64,000 nucleotides of DNA from Escherichia phage EO1. Below are positions 1-52,945 of the stretch, in pieces. The DNA is taken from the sequence record OQ223305.1, one strand, 5' to 3'. Position numbers and translations under genes: made by a program. Numbering within the stretch: the stretch's first letter is position 1; each line of letters opens with the position of its first letter. The notes beneath the pieces are model-generated. The model did no database searches. It had not been told where the DNA came from and was given only the letters and a program-made list of their open reading frames with translations.

Positions 1-705
1 TCAGCTTTTGAAAATGGTGACCGTATACCAGAAGGCATTACAGTTTATCGTGCTCAAAGTATGACTGCTCCTATATATGAAGCGTTAGTTAAAAATAAAG
101 TGTTCTATTTCAGAAATTTTGTATCTACTTCTTTAACTCCTATCATTTTTGGGCGTTTTGGAATTACACATGCTGGTATTGGTCTTTTAGAACCAGAAGC
201 TCGTAACGAATTGACAGTTGATAAAAATGAAGAAGGAATAACTATTAATCCAAACGAAATAAGAGCGTATAAAGAAAATCCTGAATACGTTAAAGTTCAA
301 ATAGGATGGGCAATTGATGGAGCTCATAAAGTTAATGTTGTATATCCAGGAAGTCTCGGAATAGCAACAGAAGCTGAAGTTATTCTACCACGAGGATTGA
401 TGGTCAAAGTTAATAAAATAACTGATGCTTCTAATAATGACGGAACAACATCTAATAATACAAAACTCATTCAAGCTGAAGTTATGACTACGGAAGAACT
501 CACCGAATCAGTAATTTATGACGGTGACCGTCTAATGGAAACTGGTGAAGTAGTTGCAATGACAGGTGATATTGAAATAGAAGACAGAGTTGACTTTGCA
601 TCATTTGTTTCATCAAATGTTAAACAGAAAGCAGAATCATCTCTCGGAATTATTGCGTCTTGCATAGATATTACAAACATGCCTTACAAGTTCGTTCAAG
701 GATAA
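1..705 (+). CDS. Alt-like ADP-ribosyltransferase paralog, 5' end outside window
   Basis: Frame is open from nt 1 (..GITVYRAQS-M..). Shares ART-type motifs with the downstream alt product (YRAQS, FVSTSL, EAEVILPRG) and a similar C-terminal tail (DGDRLMETGEV). Confidence 0.6.
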   Translation, partial: SAFENGDRIPEGITVYRAQSMTAPIYEALVKNKVFYFRNFVSTSLTPIIFGRFGITHAGIGLLEPEARNELTVDKNEEGITINPNEIRAYKENPEYVKVQIGWAIDGAHKVNVVYPGSLGIATEAEVILPRGLMVKVNKITDASNNDGTTSNNTKLIQAEVMTTEELTESVIYDGDRLMETGEVVAMTGDIEIEDRVDFASFVSSNVKQKAESSLGIIASCIDITNMPYKFVQG

Positions 706-708
706 ATC

Positions 709-2766
709 ATGGAACTTATTACAGAATTATTTGACGGCGCTTCGGCGCCGGTTGTTAACTTAAATCCTAAGCATAAAATACCTCAAATTTTTGCTATTCA
801 AGCCGGTGAAGAAAGCGTGCTTCCTGGATTTAGATTTTGTACATACACCTCTGGCGGTGATACAAATAAAAACGTTAAGCCAGGCGATAAAATGATGCAT
901 ATCGTAATGATAGGTGTCAATGAGAAACTATCATTAGTTAAACTTAAAAACTTGGGTGGAAATCCAATTGGTGTTATTAATGCGGTTTTTGATACTGCTC
1001 TTCAAACAATGAAACAGTATAAAATTGACGCATGCCTGTTCCGCGTACTAAAGAGTAAAACAAATGGCGCAGCTCGACAAATTCAAGTTATTGCTGACCG
1101 TTTAGTACGTACTAAAGGAGCAGGTCGATATGTTCTTTTAAAGGAAATCTGGGATTACGATAAAAAGTATGCATATATTATGGTTTACCGTAAAAATGCC
1201 AATTTAGAAGACATTCCAGGTGTACCTCCTATTTCAACTGAGTTATTCACAAAAGTTGAATCAAAGGTTGGTGATGTTTATGTAGACGTTAAAACAGGTA
1301 ATGCTGTTCCTAAAGCTGTTGCTGTTGCCGCTTCTATTGCTTTAGAAAATGATAAGCGCACGGATCAAGCTGTTATTCAGAAAACTAAAATTAGTCGTCG
1401 ATTAGCAGCACAAGCTCAATACTCTACTGTCGATGCTTCACTTCAGGGCGATAGTTTCGCTGCTAAGAAATATCAAGAGTTTGAATCTAAAGTTCCGGTA
1501 TATAAAGCAGAAGGACCAATGAACTCTGGCGTTATTCAGATTGGTTCAAACTTCGGCAAAGGAGCTATCGGTGGTATGAGGAGTGCTTCTCGTTTTAAAT
1601 CTAGTGATTATGAACTAGAAAGCTTCCGAAATCATATTGCATTGGCCCATGCGCGTTTACGTGATCCATCTATTAAATTACAGAGCGATATAACATATCA
1701 AGGTTCTCAGGAATATTTAAAGAATAAAGAATTTTTTGATTATAAAACTGATAAAATTTTAAGCGATCTTGCTGACATTAATATTTCTAATAGCTTTGAT
1801 GTTATTAAGAAAATTGTCAATGATTTAGTTAAAGGTTCTAAAGCCACGCCAGATGAAAAGGTAGCTATTATTCAATTTGTCATGAATGGCATTTATAAAT
1901 TGATTAATGAGTCTGCTTCTCAAGCGTATGAATATGCAAGTACTGAAGTACCCCCAAAAGGATTAACTCGGGCTGAGTCTGATGTAATTGAAGATTATTG
2001 CGCAGATTCATATGTTGAAATGAACTCGTTCCTTTTAGGTAAACCGGATTCTACTCGTGAAGAATATATGGAACGAGCTATTAAACACATCGAGACGATG
2101 GATTCTGCTTTTGCCAAAGGATCAGTTCTTCCTCCAGGAACTACGCTTTACCGTGGCCAAGAAGTTACCTTTAAAACTTTACGTCATAATATTGAAAATA
2201 AAATGTTCTATTTTAAGAACTTCGTATCCACATCGCTTAAACCAAATATCTTCGGTGAGTATGGTAAAAACTATATGACTCTAGATGATTCCAGTGCAGT
2301 ATTTTCTGGTGAAGGAGAAGGTTCAATTGACGCAGAAGATTTGATGCATATGGGCAGTCATTCTGCTTATGCGAATGAAGATGCTGAAACTAGCGTGGGT
2401 ATGGTAATTAAAGGAGCTGAGCGAATCAAAGTTATCGTTCCGGGTCATTTATCAGGATTTCCGTCAGAAGCTGAAGTTATTTTACCACGTGGAATTTTGC
2501 TGAAGATTAATAAAGTGAGCACGTACATGATGAAAGAAACTGCTTATAACAAGTATTTAATCGAAGGTACAATCGTTCCTCCTTCTGAACAATTAGAAGA
2601 ATCGGTATATGATGGCGATCATCTGATGGAAACTGGTGAAGTTCGTCCAATGGCTGGATTTAATCAATTCCTTGTAGAAGAATCAAAAGAAGAGGAAAAC
2701 GAAGTTTCTCAAATCTTGGCTTCTTTGGTTAACATCAACGGAATGTCTAAAAAGTTCAAAATGTAG
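709..2766 (+). CDS. alt: Alt ADP-ribosyltransferase (virion-packaged, modifies host RNA polymerase)
   Basis: 685-aa ORF, ATG at 709 with AAGGA RBS. Motifs LYRGQ / FVSTSL / SEAEVILPRG. Length and position next to gene 54 match T4 alt (about 682 aa, recalled). Confidence 0.85.
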   Translation: MELITELFDGASAPVVNLNPKHKIPQIFAIQAGEESVLPGFRFCTYTSGGDTNKNVKPGDKMMHIVMIGVNEKLSLVKLKNLGGNPIGVINAVFDTALQTMKQYKIDACLFRVLKSKTNGAARQIQVIADRLVRTKGAGRYVLLKEIWDYDKKYAYIMVYRKNANLEDIPGVPPISTELFTKVESKVGDVYVDVKTGNAVPKAVAVAASIALENDKRTDQAVIQKTKISRRLAAQAQYSTVDASLQGDSFAAKKYQEFESKVPVYKAEGPMNSGVIQIGSNFGKGAIGGMRSASRFKSSDYELESFRNHIALAHARLRDPSIKLQSDITYQGSQEYLKNKEFFDYKTDKILSDLADINISNSFDVIKKIVNDLVKGSKATPDEKVAIIQFVMNGIYKLINESASQAYEYASTEVPPKGLTRAESDVIEDYCADSYVEMNSFLLGKPDSTREEYMERAIKHIETMDSAFAKGSVLPPGTTLYRGQEVTFKTLRHNIENKMFYFKNFVSTSLKPNIFGEYGKNYMTLDDSSAVFSGEGEGSIDAEDLMHMGSHSAYANEDAETSVGMVIKGAERIKVIVPGHLSGFPSEAEVILPRGILLKINKVSTYMMKETAYNKYLIEGTIVPPSEQLEESVYDGDHLMETGEVRPMAGFNQFLVEESKEEENEVSQILASLVNINGMSKKFKM

Positions 2767-2826
2767 TTTACAAGTCCCTCGTGTTGTGTTATAATAATCT
2801 TACTGACATAACATGAGGAACACAAA

Positions 2827-3117
2827 ATGAAATCTTCTTTGCGCTTTTTAGGTCAAGAACTTGTAGTTGAAGGCGTTATTCCTGCTGATAATGCTTTTAA
2901 TGAAGCAGTTTATGATGAATTTATCAAAATTTTTGGAACAGATAAAAAGTTCGGAATTTTTCCTTCTGAAAATTTTTCAAAGCCAGAGCAGACTGAAAGC
3001 ATTTTCCAAGGTGTAGTAACAGGTAAATTTGAGTCAGAAGCTCCGGTAAAAATTGAAGTTTATATTGAAGACAGTTTAGTTGCTTCAGTTGCTGCTTTTA
3101 TTTCATTCCGTAAATAA
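2827..3117 (+). CDS. hypothetical protein (alt.-1 position)
   Basis: 96-aa ORF, ATG with GAGGAA RBS, followed by a terminator hairpin. Confidence 0.5.
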   Translation: MKSSLRFLGQELVVEGVIPADNAFNEAVYDEFIKIFGTDKKFGIFPSENFSKPEQTESIFQGVVTGKFESEAPVKIEVYIEDSLVASVAAFISFRK

Positions 3118-3121
3118 AAAC

Positions 3122-3143
3122 ATGGGGACCGAAAGGTCCCCAT
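3122..3143. terminator. bidirectional hairpin terminator between convergent alt.-1 and gene 54
   Basis: GGGGACC-GAAA-GGTCCCC stem-loop, T-rich on the minus-strand side. Confidence 0.6.
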
Positions 3144-3145
3144 TG

Positions 3146-4111
3146 TTATATTGCTCCTAATATTTTACTTTGCGAGTTGACAATTCCCGTCATAGTATTA
3201 ATGTTTGAAATGCTTCCTGCAGTTCCTCCTAATCTACTAAGTCGTGAAAGCGAATTAGATAGTCCAGTAACACCTCCACTATTTCCGAGAACGCTTTGAA
3301 TGCCATTTATAGCAGCAGATTCAAGCCACTCAAGCGCAGCTTGTCTATCAACTGCTCCAGCCTGCATAACTCTATACGCAAAAGTAACATCAAATGTAGT
3401 TATTTGGTTATCTCCATCATATGATAACTCAGGAGCGCTCACTGACACTGGAATGCATCCGGTGAACATCACTGCAGTATGAGGTAATCCATTACGAGCG
3501 TGAAGATTAACCTGAATGTCTGCCTCGACATCTTGTGGCAAAGCGCGCAGTCCAGTTACTGGGTCTTGAACAGCGTTAACCCAGTCTTGCATTGCACGAT
3601 AATTACATGCTTCTGAATCCATTCTAAATGAAATAACCAAAGGGTCTAATTCTCTCCCAGTTATACGAATATTAGGAGAATTATAGTTCCAGTCAGTTTC
3701 ATAGGATAATCTATTCTCTGGCATTTTTACAGAATATATCATCAATCCAGATGAGTTATATGCCATATTAAAGAAGTCAATTAAATATGTACCAACTGTA
3801 AATGAGCCCAATAAACTTTGAACTGTACGTTGACTCATGGCACCAATAAGATATTTACTAACTCCTGATTTTCTTATCAGTTTTTGTGTGCCAGCAGTAA
3901 TTAGCGTGGTAATTCCCTGATTAATATCGCCTTGAGTCAATCCTAACCAATCTGAATTTAAACCCAAGTTATTATAAGAAAAGTTGCTAATTGAACTTAT
4001 CAACGAAGAGCTTTTAGTTGATGGAGTTGTCGCAAAAACGCAGCTAAACATATTATTACGTTGGAAATCTGCGTTTATTGCTTGATTATTAAATTCCTCT
4101 AAAGAATACAT
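3146..4111 (-). CDS. 54: baseplate tail tube initiator gp54
   Basis: 321-aa ORF, ATG start. Synteny 54-48-29 and length match T4. Confidence 0.8.
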   Translation of the reverse strand: MYSLEEFNNQAINADFQRNNMFSCVFATTPSTKSSSLISSISNFSYNNLGLNSDWLGLTQGDINQGITTLITAGTQKLIRKSGVSKYLIGAMSQRTVQSLLGSFTVGTYLIDFFNMAYNSSGLMIYSVKMPENRLSYETDWNYNSPNIRITGRELDPLVISFRMDSEACNYRAMQDWVNAVQDPVTGLRALPQDVEADIQVNLHARNGLPHTAVMFTGCIPVSVSAPELSYDGDNQITTFDVTFAYRVMQAGAVDRQAALEWLESAAINGIQSVLGNSGGVTGLSNSLSRLSRLGGTAGSISNINTMTGIVNSQSKILGAI

Positions 4112-51349: not shown

Positions 51350-51422
51350 TGGGAATTAGCCAAGTTGGTAAGGCACTGGATTTTGATTCCAGGATGCAAA
51401 GGTTCGAGTCCTTTATTCCCAG
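51350..51422 (+). tRNA. tRNA-Gln (anticodon UUG)
   Basis: Hand-folded cloverleaf: acceptor TGGGAAT/ATTCCCA, anticodon stem CTGGA/TCCAG with loop TTTTGAT, T-loop GGTTCGAGTCC. Confidence 0.8.
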
Positions 51423-51423
51423 C

Positions 51424-51510
51424 GCGAGAATGGTCAAATTGGTAAAGGCACAGCACTTAAAATGCTGCGGAATGATTTCCTTGTGGGTTCGAGTCCCACT
51501 TCTCGCACCA
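51424..51510 (+). tRNA. tRNA-Leu (anticodon UAA), type II, CCA encoded
   Basis: Acceptor GCGAGAA/TTCTCGC, anticodon loop CTTAAAA, long variable arm, GGTTCGAGTCC T-arm, 3' ACCA. Confidence 0.8.
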
Positions 51511-51515
51511 AATTT

Positions 51516-51589
<74 letters not shown>

Positions 51590-51635
51590 ATTTATGACTC
51601 GTCGTGAGACGCTCAGTTCTTTATTAGGGACTGAT

Positions 51636-52244
51636 ATGCATTTTTATCTTTATAAAATAACAAATAAAATTAATAATAAAGTTTATATTGGTGTGCATTC
51701 TACCGAAAATTTAGATGATGGATATATGGGTTCTGGCAAATTATTAAAAAGAGCCCAAGACAAGTATGGTATAGAAAATTTCTCTAAAGAAATATTAGAG
51801 TATTTTGATGATAAAGAATCTATGCTTGAAGCCGAGAAAAATATTGTCACAGAAGAGTTTTTAAATAGACCAGACGTGTATAATTTAAAACTTGGCGGTG
51901 AAGGTGGATGGGACCATATAAATAATTATCCTATGACAGATCAGCAACGTGAATTAATTTCATTGGGTGTTAAAAAGGCGCATTCTAACGGAAAATTAAA
52001 AGGATGGTCTTCAAATGGATTAATGAAGAATGGCTTTGCTGGTAAAACTCATTCTCAAGAAGCTAAACGTAAAATAGCAAAAGCAAACGAAGCAAAAGTT
52101 TCTGCGGATGAAAGAAAAAGAAGAATAGAAATTTCTAAATTATATGATTTTTCTAAGCGTGGTGAATTATCTAAATATGCTAAGCATATTGGCGTAAGTC
52201 ATACTCAAGCAAAAAGAATTCTAAATCAAATTAACAATATATAA
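51636..52244 (+). CDS. segB: GIY-YIG homing endonuclease (SegB-like) inside the tRNA cluster
   Basis: GIY-YIG motif near the N-terminus (YLYKITNKINNKVYIGVHSTEN) and a basic C-terminal DNA-binding region. ATG at 51636 with AGGGA RBS is preferred over the track start at 51594, which abuts tRNA-Gly. Confidence 0.75.
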   Translation: MHFYLYKITNKINNKVYIGVHSTENLDDGYMGSGKLLKRAQDKYGIENFSKEILEYFDDKESMLEAEKNIVTEEFLNRPDVYNLKLGGEGGWDHINNYPMTDQQRELISLGVKKAHSNGKLKGWSSNGLMKNGFAGKTHSQEAKRKIAKANEAKVSADERKRRIEISKLYDFSKRGELSKYAKHIGVSHTQAKRILNQINNI

Positions 52245-52249
52245 TATTT

Positions 52250-52339
52250 GGAGGCGTGGCAGAGTGGTTTAATGCACCGGTCTTGAAAACCGGCAGTCGC
52301 TCCGGCGACTCATAGGTTCAAATCCTATCGCCTCCGCCA
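52250..52339 (+). tRNA. tRNA-Ser (anticodon UGA), type II
   Basis: Acceptor GGAGGCG/CGCCTCC, anticodon stem CCGGT/ACCGG with loop CTTGAAA, long variable arm, 3' GCCA. Confidence 0.8.
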
Positions 52340-52344
52340 GTTTT

Positions 52345-52420
52345 GCTGATTTAGCTCAGTAGGTAGAGCAACTCACTTGTAATGAGAATGTCGGCGGTTC
52401 GATTCCGTCAATCAGCACCA
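52345..52420 (+). tRNA. tRNA-Thr (anticodon UGU)
   Basis: Acceptor GCTGATT/AATCAGC, D-arm TAGCTCAGTAGGTAGAGC, anticodon loop CTTGTAA, 3' ACCA. Confidence 0.75.
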
Positions 52421-52421
52421 A

Positions 52422-52496
52422 GGCCCTGTAGCTGGAAGGTTCAAGCAAGCGACTCATAATCGCCAGATGGTGGTTCAATTCCACCCAGGGCCACCA
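52422..52496 (+). tRNA. tRNA with CAU anticodon (Met, or lysidine-type Ile as annotated in T4)
   Basis: Acceptor GGCCCTG/CAGGGCC, anticodon loop CTCATAA, T-loop GGTTCAATTCC, 3' ACCA. Confidence 0.75.
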
Positions 52497-52509
52497 AATT
52501 AAGAATTAA

Positions 52510-52596
52510 GGGGAGTTATCCCGTAGAGGTAGCGGTGTGGACTGTAAATCCATTGTCATTGCGACTCGGGTGGTTCGACTCCATCACTCCCCACCA
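52510..52596 (+). tRNA. tRNA-Tyr (anticodon GUA), type II
   Basis: Acceptor GGGGAGT/ACTCCCC, anticodon region ACTGTAAATC identical to the bacterial tRNA-Tyr loop, long variable arm, 3' ACCA. Confidence 0.75.
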
Positions 52597-52600
52597 ATTT

Positions 52601-52675
52601 GGATGTGTAGCTCAATGGCAGAGCGATCGCCTGTTAAGCGATTGGTTATAGGTTCGAATCCTATCACGTCCGCCA
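52601..52675 (+). tRNA. tRNA-Asn (anticodon GUU)
   Basis: Acceptor GGATGTG/CACGTCC (one G-U pair), anticodon stem ATCGC/GCGAT with loop CTGTTAA, T-loop GGTTCGAATCC, 3' GCCA. Confidence 0.75.
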
Positions 52676-52789
52676 AATTTGTGACAACTGTCACATTAAT
52701 ATCTACTTGACGCGATTATAGGGGTTGAACTGATCACTCTTCTCTTAATTTCGTGTGAAGACATCTTGATTGTTGGAGTAGGTATTAAT

Positions 52790-52865
52790 GTGGCCGTAGT
52801 TCAGTTGGTAGAACTCGAGATTGTGATTCTCGTAGTCATGGGTTCGACCCCCATCGGTCACCCCA
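52790..52865 (+). tRNA. tRNA-His (anticodon GUG)
   Basis: Acceptor GTGGCCG/CGGTCAC, D-arm GTTCAGTTGGTAGAAC, anticodon stem CGAGA/TCTCG with loop TTGTGAT, 3' CCCA. Confidence 0.75.
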
Positions 52866-52869
52866 ATTA

Positions 52870-52945
52870 CGGGGCATAGCTCAGAAGGAAGAGCAAGGAC
52901 CTTCTAAGTCCTAGGTCGTAGGTTCGATCCCTACTGCCTCGACCA
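52870..52945 (+). tRNA. tRNA-Arg (anticodon UCU)
   Basis: Acceptor CGGGGCA/TGCCTCG, anticodon stem AGGAC/GTCCT with loop CTTCTAA, T-loop GGTTCGATCC, 3' ACCA. Confidence 0.8.

What the first reader, a model, noticed from the sequence alone, without database searches (positions are those of the whole stretch)
1..2766. Two tandem Alt-family ADP-ribosyltransferase genes
The 5'-truncated ORF at 1-705 and alt at 709-2766 share the catalytic motifs (YRxQ, FVSTSL, EAEVILPRG) and a similar C-terminal tail, but diverge elsewhere. The upstream copy runs off the window. Tandem divergent ART paralogs suggest different substrate specificities among injected host-modifying enzymes.
Basis: seen in the sequence. 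Interest (0 to 1): 0.45.

Follow-up and report, generated by a model that had tools for sequence, protein, structure and literature searches.

The report
Tandem Alt ADP-ribosyltransferase genes, T-even phage
The window opens inside the T4-like phage gene alt and runs straight into a second, intact Alt-family ADP-ribosyltransferase gene (alt.-2 in RB-phage records), a pair that is already annotated in about 400 sequenced phages and survives in T4 only as a broken stump, so the finding is real but ordinary.

Summary
Window 1-705 is an open, 5'-cut reading frame, and 709-2766 is a 685-aa ORF. The two share 35% identity over about 240 residues (E 4e-39). Both pass Pfam ADPrib_exo_Tox and both keep the Arg / Ser-Thr-Ser / Glu-x-Glu catalytic motifs.

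The cut upstream ORF is the positional orthologue of T4 alt, carrying the T2-type allele. It is an intact 697-aa gene in the 99%-identical phage WL-3.

The complete downstream gene is the second paralogue, only 46% identical to T4 Alt. T4's small ORFs alt.-1 and alt.-2 are its remnant. They arose by a 1-bp loss in an A-run and a 1,699-bp deletion between 9-nt microhomologies.

The intact pair occurs in about 400 phage records, including T2, RB6 and RB51. The downstream gene is under strong purifying selection (dN/dS about 0.05).

In close relatives a late promoter lies upstream of alt. The two genes are 3 nt apart and share the N-terminal MELITELFD sequence and N-domain. The likely mechanism is that both enzymes are packaged in the head, injected with the DNA, and ADP-ribosylate arginines on host proteins. 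Different substrates for the two are plausible but untested.

The duplication is already in GenBank and RefSeq annotation and in Nolan et al. 2006. Interest is low.

The parts
1..705 (+). Last 234 codons plus stop of alt (T2-type allele), the positional orthologue of T4 alt. The 5' two thirds lie outside the window.
   Evidence: Open frame from base 1. PF03496 hit at 1.8e-19. 233-234 of 235 positions identical to the C-terminus of the 697-aa alt of WL-3, NBG2, T2 and RB6. 73% identical to T4 Alt. 97.4% nucleotide identity to T2 alt record X69893.
46..396 (+). Catalytic motifs of the upstream enzyme: YRAQ (46-57), FVSTSL (118-135), EAEVILPRG (370-396).
   Evidence: The equivalent residues are invariant in the 20- and 27-sequence family alignments.
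698..708 (+). AAGGA ribosome-binding site (698-702) inside the end of alt, TAA stop (703-705) and 3-nt spacer (706-708) before the next ATG. This implies co-transcription and close translational coupling.
   Evidence: Read directly from the sequence. No TATAAATA or other promoter lies between the genes.
709..2766 (+). Intact second Alt-family gene, 685 aa ('alt.-2' in the RB6 and RB51 records). Layout: N-terminal Tevenvirinae_ADPRT domain (about aa 1-240), divergent helical region (about 240-440), ART domain (about 440-620), disordered acidic tail with a conserved end.
   Evidence: ORF. phrog_802 full-length match at 9e-255. PF03496. PF26846 plus PF03496 on the 98%-identical cluster P0001. AlphaFold model with pLDDT 76. 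dN/dS about 0.05 against T2, RB6 and NBG2.
709..735 (+). N-terminal MELITELFD, identical in T4 Alt and in both paralogues. It contains an I-x-E site (MELITE|L) of the kind cut by the T4 prohead protease. Presumed head-targeting and processing signal.
   Evidence: That gp21 removes a small N-terminal peptide from gpAlt comes from PMC9958956. The exact cut site is inferred.
2149..2493 (+). Catalytic motifs of the downstream enzyme: YRGQ (R482), FVSTSL (S507-T508-S509), EAEVILPRG (E587, E589).
   Evidence: R482, Q484, S507, E587 and E589 are invariant in 27 family members. The model matches C3/VIP2/Vis-type ARTs.
868..872 (+). A5 run that is A4 in T4. This 1-bp loss creates the alt.-1 stop and the alt.-2 restart in T4.
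   Evidence: Alignment of the T4 region with the window. Coordinates.
1048..1056 (+). Left copy of the 9-nt microhomology (CTAAAGAGT) at which T4 lacks 1,699 bp.
2747..2755 (+). Right copy of the microhomology (CTAAAAAGT). T4 sequence resumes here.
2766..2795 (+). Early-type sigma-70 promoter-like site, GTTTACA-17-TATAAT with an upstream TG. It separates the ART pair from alt.-3.
   Evidence: 11 of 12 consensus match. The -35 matches the T4 early GTTTAC consensus quoted in PMC1524935.
2827..3117 (+). alt.-3 (DUF5498, 96 aa), 100% identical in protein to T4 Alt.-3. It is a neighbour, not an ART.
3122..3143 (.). Bidirectional hairpin terminator between alt.-3 and the convergent gene 54.

Best explanation
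The window comes from a Tequatrovirus (T4-like phage) and opens inside alt. Shown: 1-705 is the 3' end of the T2-type allele of alt. Three bases later starts a complete second Alt-family gene (709-2766). This gene is the full-length form of what T4 keeps only as the stump alt.-1/alt.-2. Both products have the same layout: a conserved N-terminal domain, a divergent helical middle, a C3/VIP2-like ART domain with Arg, Ser-Thr-Ser and Glu-x-Glu, and a conserved tail. Inferred: both are transcribed late from the TATAAATA promoter upstream of alt. Both are built into the prohead core through their shared N-terminal signal and domain, trimmed by the gp21 protease, and injected with the DNA. Each then uses NAD+ to mono-ADP-ribosylate arginine residues of host proteins at the start of infection. 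T4 Alt does this to the RNA polymerase alpha subunit and to other host proteins. The unalignable middle region and the indel-rich loop between STS and ExE probably give the two enzymes partly different target sets.
For: Identity of the genes:
- The best DNA match is phage WL-3 at 99%, where both genes are annotated as intact ARTs.
- The same arrangement is seen in NBG2, T2 and RB6.
- In T4 the order is 30, alt.1, alt, alt.-1, alt.-2, alt.-3, then 54.
- T4 alt.-1 and alt.-2 are 89% and 82% identical to aa 1-116 of the downstream ORF, against 57% and 55% to T4 Alt.
- At DNA level T4 is 95-96% identical on both sides of a 1,699-bp gap.

Family and fold:
- PF03496 hits both ORFs and phrog_802 covers both over their full length.
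- The catalytic residues are invariant.
- The AlphaFold model matches the Vis, C3, VIP2, CDTa and Certhrax ARTs with Foldseek probability 1.0.

Evidence that the gene is functional:
- dN/dS is 0.05-0.07 over the whole gene and over each region.
- The region is present at >=80% coverage in 401 phage records.
- The ART body is >=95% identical in protein in about 400 records.

Expression and packaging:
- TATAAATA lies about 24 nt upstream of alt in WL-3 and T4, and there is none between the genes.
- The spacer is 3 nt and carries an SD sequence.
- MELITELFD is identical and the N-domain is about 68% identical between the paralogues.
- gpAlt is a head-core protein of about 40 copies, trimmed by gp21 and injected (PMC9958956; PMC5512222).
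- Glu-x-Glu as the signature of arginine-specific ARTs is established knowledge of the R-S-E clade.
Against: No experiment on the downstream protein was found in the searchable literature. Its activity, packaging and targets all rest on homology. The upstream gene's 5' part and the late promoter lie outside the window and are taken from relatives that are 97-99% identical. T4 does well without the second gene, and a natural phage has collapsed the pair into one hybrid gene. Neither catalytic body is therefore individually essential, and redundancy cannot be excluded.
Confidence: 0.8

Rival explanations
1. The two enzymes are functionally redundant. They have the same targets (RNA polymerase alpha and the usual Alt substrates), and the duplication only raises dose or robustness.
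For: Both have the same catalytic motifs and the Glu-x-Glu arginine signature. T4 lost the second copy. Another phage fused the pair into a single gene. Either body is therefore dispensable.
Against: The paralogues are only 44% identical overall. They cannot be aligned across about 200 residues of the middle region and have indels in the loop after STS. Yet each is conserved at dN/dS about 0.05 across about 400 genomes. That pattern is more typical of sub- or neo-functionalised copies than of redundant ones.
Confidence: 0.25
2. The downstream protein is a catalytically inactive or purely structural head-core protein, or is not packaged at all.
For: There is no direct evidence of activity. The loop at 517-555 and the tail at 630-663 are low-confidence in the model.
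Against: R482, S507, E587 and E589 are invariant. The ART region itself has dN/dS 0.05-0.065. The N-terminal signal and domain are shared with the packaged Alt. The gene is coupled to the late-transcribed alt.
Confidence: 0.07
3. The upstream ORF is a pseudogene in this particular phage.
For: Only its last 705 nt are visible.
Against: The visible part is open and keeps all motifs. It differs from intact genes by 1-2 residues, with dN/dS 0.01-0.05. In WL-3, NBG2, T2 and RB6 the gene is an intact 697-aa ORF.
Confidence: 0.03
4. The downstream enzyme modifies something other than protein arginine, for example nucleic acid, or attaches NAD-capped RNA as T4 ModB does.
For: ModB, from the same R-S-E clade, RNAylates proteins (cited in PMC9503650). 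The target-recognition regions of the paralogue differ from those of Alt.
Against: It has the Glu-x-Glu motif and a C3/VIP2-type fold like the protein-arginine ARTs. Nothing specific points to a nucleic-acid substrate.
Confidence: 0.08

Closest known systems
T4 Alt (gpAlt, NP_049811), the packaged NAD+:protein-arginine ADP-ribosyltransferase
   Same: Same family (phrog_802; PF26846 plus PF03496), same domain order, same catalytic motifs, same N-terminal MELITELFD, and same locus between genes 30/alt.1 and alt.-3/54. The upstream ORF is its positional orthologue. The N-domain is about 100% identical in the full-length relative, and the tail ends ...PYKFVQG.
   Different: The upstream ORF carries the T2-type catalytic body. 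The fragment is 73% identical to T4 Alt overall and much less in the core between STS and ExE, with an 11-residue insertion. The downstream ORF is only 46% identical to T4 Alt and cannot be aligned across the middle 200 residues.
T2 alt (GenBank X69893; AP018813 EcT2_00209)
   Same: Window 1-420 is 97.4% identical in DNA. The fragment differs by one residue from T2 Alt.
   Different: No meaningful difference. It is the same allele.
T4 alt.-1 and alt.-2 (NP_049810, NP_049809); 'alt.-2' of RB6 and RB51
   Same: The T4 ORFs are 96% identical in DNA to window 709-1056 and are the remnant of this gene. The RB6 (RB6_192) and RB51 records already label the full-length gene alt.-2.
   Different: In T4 the gene is broken by a 1-bp deletion and has lost 1,699 bp, including the whole ART domain. 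Here it is intact. The T4 record calls the remnant 'a duplication of the first part of alt', but the comparison shows a truncated full-length paralogue.
T4 ModA and ModB
   Same: R-S-E clade ARTs of the same phage group (PMC5512222, PMC9503650).
   Different: ModA and ModB are small, not packaged, made after infection, and lack the Alt N-domain. They were not compared by sequence here.
C3 exoenzyme, VIP2, iota/CDTa, Vis and Certhrax bacterial ART toxins
   Same: The predicted ART domain superposes on them (Foldseek E 2e-7 to 1e-4, TM to target about 0.6). The Arg, STS and (E/Q)xE motifs are shared.
   Different: 15-19% identity. They have no phage head-targeting N-domain, and delivery differs (secreted toxins rather than injection from a capsid).

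Membership tests
Alt family of T-even phages (phrog_802; Pfam PF26846 Tevenvirinae_ADPRT plus PF03496) | Full-length match to the family profile | tested here: met
   phrog_802 matches the downstream ORF at 9e-255 over residues 1-685. It matches the upstream fragment at 5e-90 over profile positions 460-674, and the full WL-3 upstream gene at 7e-273.
Alt family of T-even phages | ADP-ribosyltransferase domain above the curated Pfam threshold | tested here: met
   PF03496 scores 70.3 and 71.8 bits against a cut-off of 23.4.
Alt family of T-even phages | Catalytic Arg, Ser-Thr-Ser and Glu-x-Glu | tested here: met
   Both ORFs carry YR[AG]Q, FVSTSL and EAEVILPRG. These residues are invariant in 27 homologues.
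Alt family of T-even phages | Conserved N-terminal domain and MELITE... leader | tested here: met
   The downstream ORF has it in the window. For the upstream gene it is seen only in the 97-99%-identical relatives WL-3, NBG2, T2 and RB6. PF26846 is precomputed on the 98%-identical cluster P0001. The local Pfam copy gave no PF26846 hit.
Alt family of T-even phages | Locus between DNA ligase/alt.1 and alt.-3/gene 54, late promoter upstream | tested here: met
   The window shows alt.-3, 54, 48 and 29 downstream. Relatives and T4 show 30, alt.1 and TATAAATA upstream.
Alt family of T-even phages | Packaged in the head, processed by gp21, injected with DNA | not testable with these tools
   Inferred only from the shared N-terminus and the late operon. 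The facts for T4 Alt come from PMC9958956.
Alt family of T-even phages | NAD+-dependent ADP-ribosylation of host proteins (RNA polymerase alpha) | not testable with these tools
   This needs biochemistry. No published assay of the second paralogue was found.
Orthologue of T4 alt (the claim made for 709-2766) | Closest relative and same position as T4 alt | tested here: not met
   709-2766 is 46% identical to T4 Alt and sits in the second position. It matches T4 alt.-1 and alt.-2 at 82-89% protein and 96% DNA identity. The upstream ORF meets this feature instead.
R-S-E (C3/VIP2-like) ART fold | Predicted structure superposes on solved members | tested here: met
   Model pLDDT 76 and pTM 0.72. 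74 PDB hits at E<=0.001, and all of the top 50 listed are ARTs.

The most novel reading that the evidence does not exclude
Most T-even phages inject two different ADP-ribosyltransferases. The second (the alt.-2 product) has its own host target set, possibly a counter-defence or non-RNA-polymerase role, which decades of T4 work missed because T4 carries only a deleted stump of the gene.
Probability: 0.3. Interest if true: 0.5.

Novelty: already known. Interest (0 to 1): 0.25.

Why it matters
The practical value is a corrected annotation. The cut ORF is alt, and the complete ORF is the full-length alt.-2 paralogue. The comparison also reminds us that T4, the reference phage for Alt biology, is atypical at this locus. 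About 400 sequenced relatives, including T2, carry a second conserved and probably injected ART whose targets nobody has reported in the literature searched here. If its substrates differ from Alt's, host-takeover models built on T4 alone are incomplete. The gene pair itself is not a discovery.

Tried and rejected
- A sequence search of the PDB with the 685-aa protein found nothing at E<=0.01, and NCBIfam has no model for it.
- Literature searches for alt.-1/alt.-2, Alt-like proteins, Alt in T2/T6 and Tequatrovirus found only the duplication remark in Nolan 2006 and general reviews. No functional study of the second paralogue turned up. Searches failed on term length.
- Koch 1995 (PMC6134386) and Miller 2003 (PMC150520) are not held. 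The mature size of gpAlt and its exact cleavage sites could therefore not be checked.
- The last four lines (fragment against upstream genes) were out of frame and are invalid. They were redone correctly.
- A MotA-box-like string inside the downstream gene (window 1335) and the other sigma-70-like hits are no more frequent than in shuffled sequence, so they were dismissed.
- A recent duplication in this phage is rejected, because the copies are 44% identical and the pair is widespread.
Full report
**What is in the sequence.**
- Frame 1 of window 1-705 is open from the first base to a TAA at 703-705.
- An AAGGA ribosome-binding site sits at 698-702. After a 3-nt spacer, a 685-aa ORF runs from 709 to 2766.
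- The two products align over about 240 residues at 35% identity, E 4e-39.
- Both exceed the Pfam gathering score for ADPrib_exo_Tox (PF03496), at 70 and 72 bits against a cut-off of 23.4.

**Where the window comes from.**
- The 2,766 bases match 539 phage records, nearly all Tequatrovirus. The best match is phage vB_EcoM_WL-3 at 99%.
- Downstream lie alt.-3 (DUF5498, protein identical to T4's) and the convergent genes 54, 48 and 29.
- In WL-3, NBG2, T2 and RB6 the order is DNA ligase (30), alt.1, a 697-aa ART gene, a 685-aa ART gene, alt.-3, then 54 on the other strand.
- The window fragment differs from the C-terminus of those 697-aa genes at 1-2 of 235 positions.

**Which copy is alt.**
- In T4 the order is 30, alt.1, alt (682 aa), alt.-1 (61 aa), alt.-2 (67 aa), alt.-3, then 54.
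- The upstream ORF is the positional equivalent of T4 alt. It shares the tail ...PYKFVQG and is 73% identical to T4 Alt over the fragment. The full WL-3 gene is 72% identical, with the first 240 residues nearly 100% identical.
- Window 1-420 is 97.4% identical to the separate GenBank record of T2 alt, X69893. This is the T2-type allele. Its catalytic core differs noticeably from T4's, including an 11-residue insertion.
- T4 alt.-1 and alt.-2 match residues 1-116 of the downstream ORF at 89% and 82%. They match T4 Alt itself at only 57% and 55%.
- The PHROG families built on alt.-1 and alt.-2 hit the downstream ORF at 1e-40 and 1e-38, against 1e-21 and 1e-19 for the upstream gene.

**How T4 lost the second gene.** Aligned at DNA level, T4 is 96% identical to window 640-1056 and 95% identical to window 2747-3161, with two lesions:
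- The A5 run at 868-872 is A4 in T4. This makes the alt.-1 stop and the alt.-2 restart.
- 1,699 bp are missing between the 9-nt repeats CTAAAGAGT (1048-1056) and CTAAAAAGT (2747-2755).

The T4 stump is thus a deleted copy of exactly this gene, not a duplication of only the first part of alt as the T4 record's note puts it. The RB6 and RB51 records already tag the full-length gene 'alt.-2'.

**Distribution and selection.**
- The segment that T4 lacks (window 1100-2700) is present at >=80% coverage in 401 phage records, including T2 and RB6. T4 strains only cross-match through the alt N-terminus at 78%.
- A tblastn search with the downstream ART body finds about 400 records at >=95% protein identity. 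Each listed example has two ART places in the record. The next tier lies at 52-54% (MX01, MN04) and everything else is below about 41%.
- Among the window, WL-3, NBG2, T2 and RB6, the downstream gene has no indels. Its dN/dS is 0.05-0.07 for the diverged pairs and 0.14 for the near-identical window/WL-3 pair.
- By region against T2 and RB6, dN/dS is 0.02-0.03 for the N-domain, 0.07-0.09 for the middle, 0.05-0.065 for the ART domain and 0 for the tail.
- The upstream gene behaves the same way. Both are maintained by purifying selection.

**Architecture.**
- A 20-sequence alignment shows a conserved N-terminal domain of about 240 residues, with about 68% identity between the paralogues.
- Next come about 200 residues that cannot be aligned between the paralogues, then the ART domain at 35-40% identity, and then a tail with conserved motifs.
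- R482, Q484, S507, E587 and E589 (downstream numbering) are invariant in 27 homologues.
- An AlphaFold2 model of the 685-aa protein has pLDDT 76 and pTM 0.72. Its low-confidence stretches are 1-10, 517-554 (the loop after STS) and 630-663.
- Foldseek against the PDB returns only ARTs among the top 50 hits (Vis, Certhrax, CDTa, C3, VIP2), at E down to 2e-7 and TM to target about 0.6.
- No solved structure is detectable by sequence.
- Precomputed Pfam hits on the 98%-identical cluster add PF26846, named Tevenvirinae_ADPRT, for the N-terminal part.
- In the viral structure library, the same N-domain model also matches the N-terminal part of many large uncharacterised myovirus proteins at E 1e-6 to 1e-4.

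**Expression.**
- In WL-3 and T4 a late-promoter box TATAAATA lies about 24 nt before the alt start, just after a hairpin. None lies between the two ART genes.
- After the second gene comes a strong early-type promoter-like site, GTTTACA-17-TATAAT (2766-2795). It precedes alt.-3, which ends at a bidirectional terminator at 3122-3143.
- The ART pair therefore looks like one late transcription unit, distinct from alt.-3.

**Mechanism.**
- T4 gpAlt is a non-essential prohead-core protein of about 40 copies. The gp21 protease trims its N-terminus. It is injected with the DNA and ADP-ribosylates the RNA polymerase alpha subunit and other host proteins (PMC9958956; PMC5512222; PMC9503650).
- The downstream protein shares the first nine residues, MELITELFD, which include an I-x-E site. 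It also shares the N-domain, the late operon and the catalytic residues.
- The best-supported reading is that it is a second packaged, injected, arginine-specific mono-ADP-ribosyltransferase. Arginine specificity is inferred from Glu-x-Glu, an established rule for R-S-E ARTs.
- The divergent middle and post-STS loop make different targets plausible. That step is inference only, and no study of this protein was found.
- Conserved L-x-E sites lie in the disordered tail (LxE|S and DGDHLME|TGE). Cuts at both ends would give about 70 kDa. This is speculation that I could not check against the primary papers.

**Dynamics of the locus.** Three states exist.
- The intact pair is the majority state.
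- The T4 state is alt plus the stump.
- The third state is a single 684-aa hybrid gene in a metagenomic contig. It has an Alt-type N-terminus up to about residue 175 and the paralogue-2 body from about residue 193. The crossover lies in a stretch identical between the copies.

Either catalytic body can therefore be lost. The T4 head review notes that alt-minus mutants package more DNA (PMC3012670). This hints at a head-space cost, but that link is my inference.

**Comparison with what is known, and verdict.**
- The gene pair is annotated as two Alt-like ARTs in RefSeq and GenBank records.
- The T4 record notes the duplication.
- Nolan et al. 2006 list alt.-1/alt.-2 and full-length alt duplicates in other T4-like phages (PMC1524935).
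- The finding is real, the interpretation needs its gene labels swapped, and the feature is already known.
- The one open question is what the second enzyme modifies. Interest is low (0.25).

Noticed in passing
window 2827-3117 (promoter-like site 2766-2795): alt.-3 (DUF5498) is 100% identical in protein to T4 Alt.-3 and has its own early-type promoter. Vassallo et al. 2024 (PMC11618068) report that read-through extensions of the T4 Alt.-3 C-terminus let T4 escape the CmdTAC defence system. The wild-type function is unknown.
   Followed up: partly
L006 5001-7055 (Logan SRR24155011 contig): This locus holds a single hybrid alt gene (684 aa) between alt.1 and alt.-3. Its N-terminus is Alt-type to about aa 175 and its body is paralogue-2 type from about aa 193. 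The tandem pair appears to have collapsed by recombination within the homologous N-domains.
   Followed up: partly
[not shown]
   Followed up: partly
window 1-705 compared with T4 alt (L003 5455-7503): alt itself is mosaic. The N-domain and tail are nearly identical between the T2-type and T4-type alleles, but the middle and catalytic core are strongly diverged, including an 11-residue insertion. About 350 phage records carry the T2-type core at >=90% DNA identity.
   Followed up: partly
window 2608-2640 and 517-549 (tail motif YDGDxLMETGE): The motif is invariant in all 27 Alt-family members aligned and lies in a predicted disordered tail. It contains an L-x-E site of the kind cut by the T4 prohead protease, which suggests possible C-terminal processing.
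   Followed up: no
window 51350-52945: The tRNA cluster holds 10 genes: Gln, Leu, Gly, Ser, Thr, Met/Ile(CAT), Tyr, Asn, His and Arg. It is interrupted by a 216-aa homing-endonuclease ORF at 51594-52244. From memory T4 has 8 tRNAs, so the Tyr, Asn and His genes look like extras.
   Followed up: no
L001 5985 (16 nt before window position 1): A second exact TATAAATA late-promoter box lies inside alt, just upstream of the window start. It could be chance or an internal late start.
   Followed up: no
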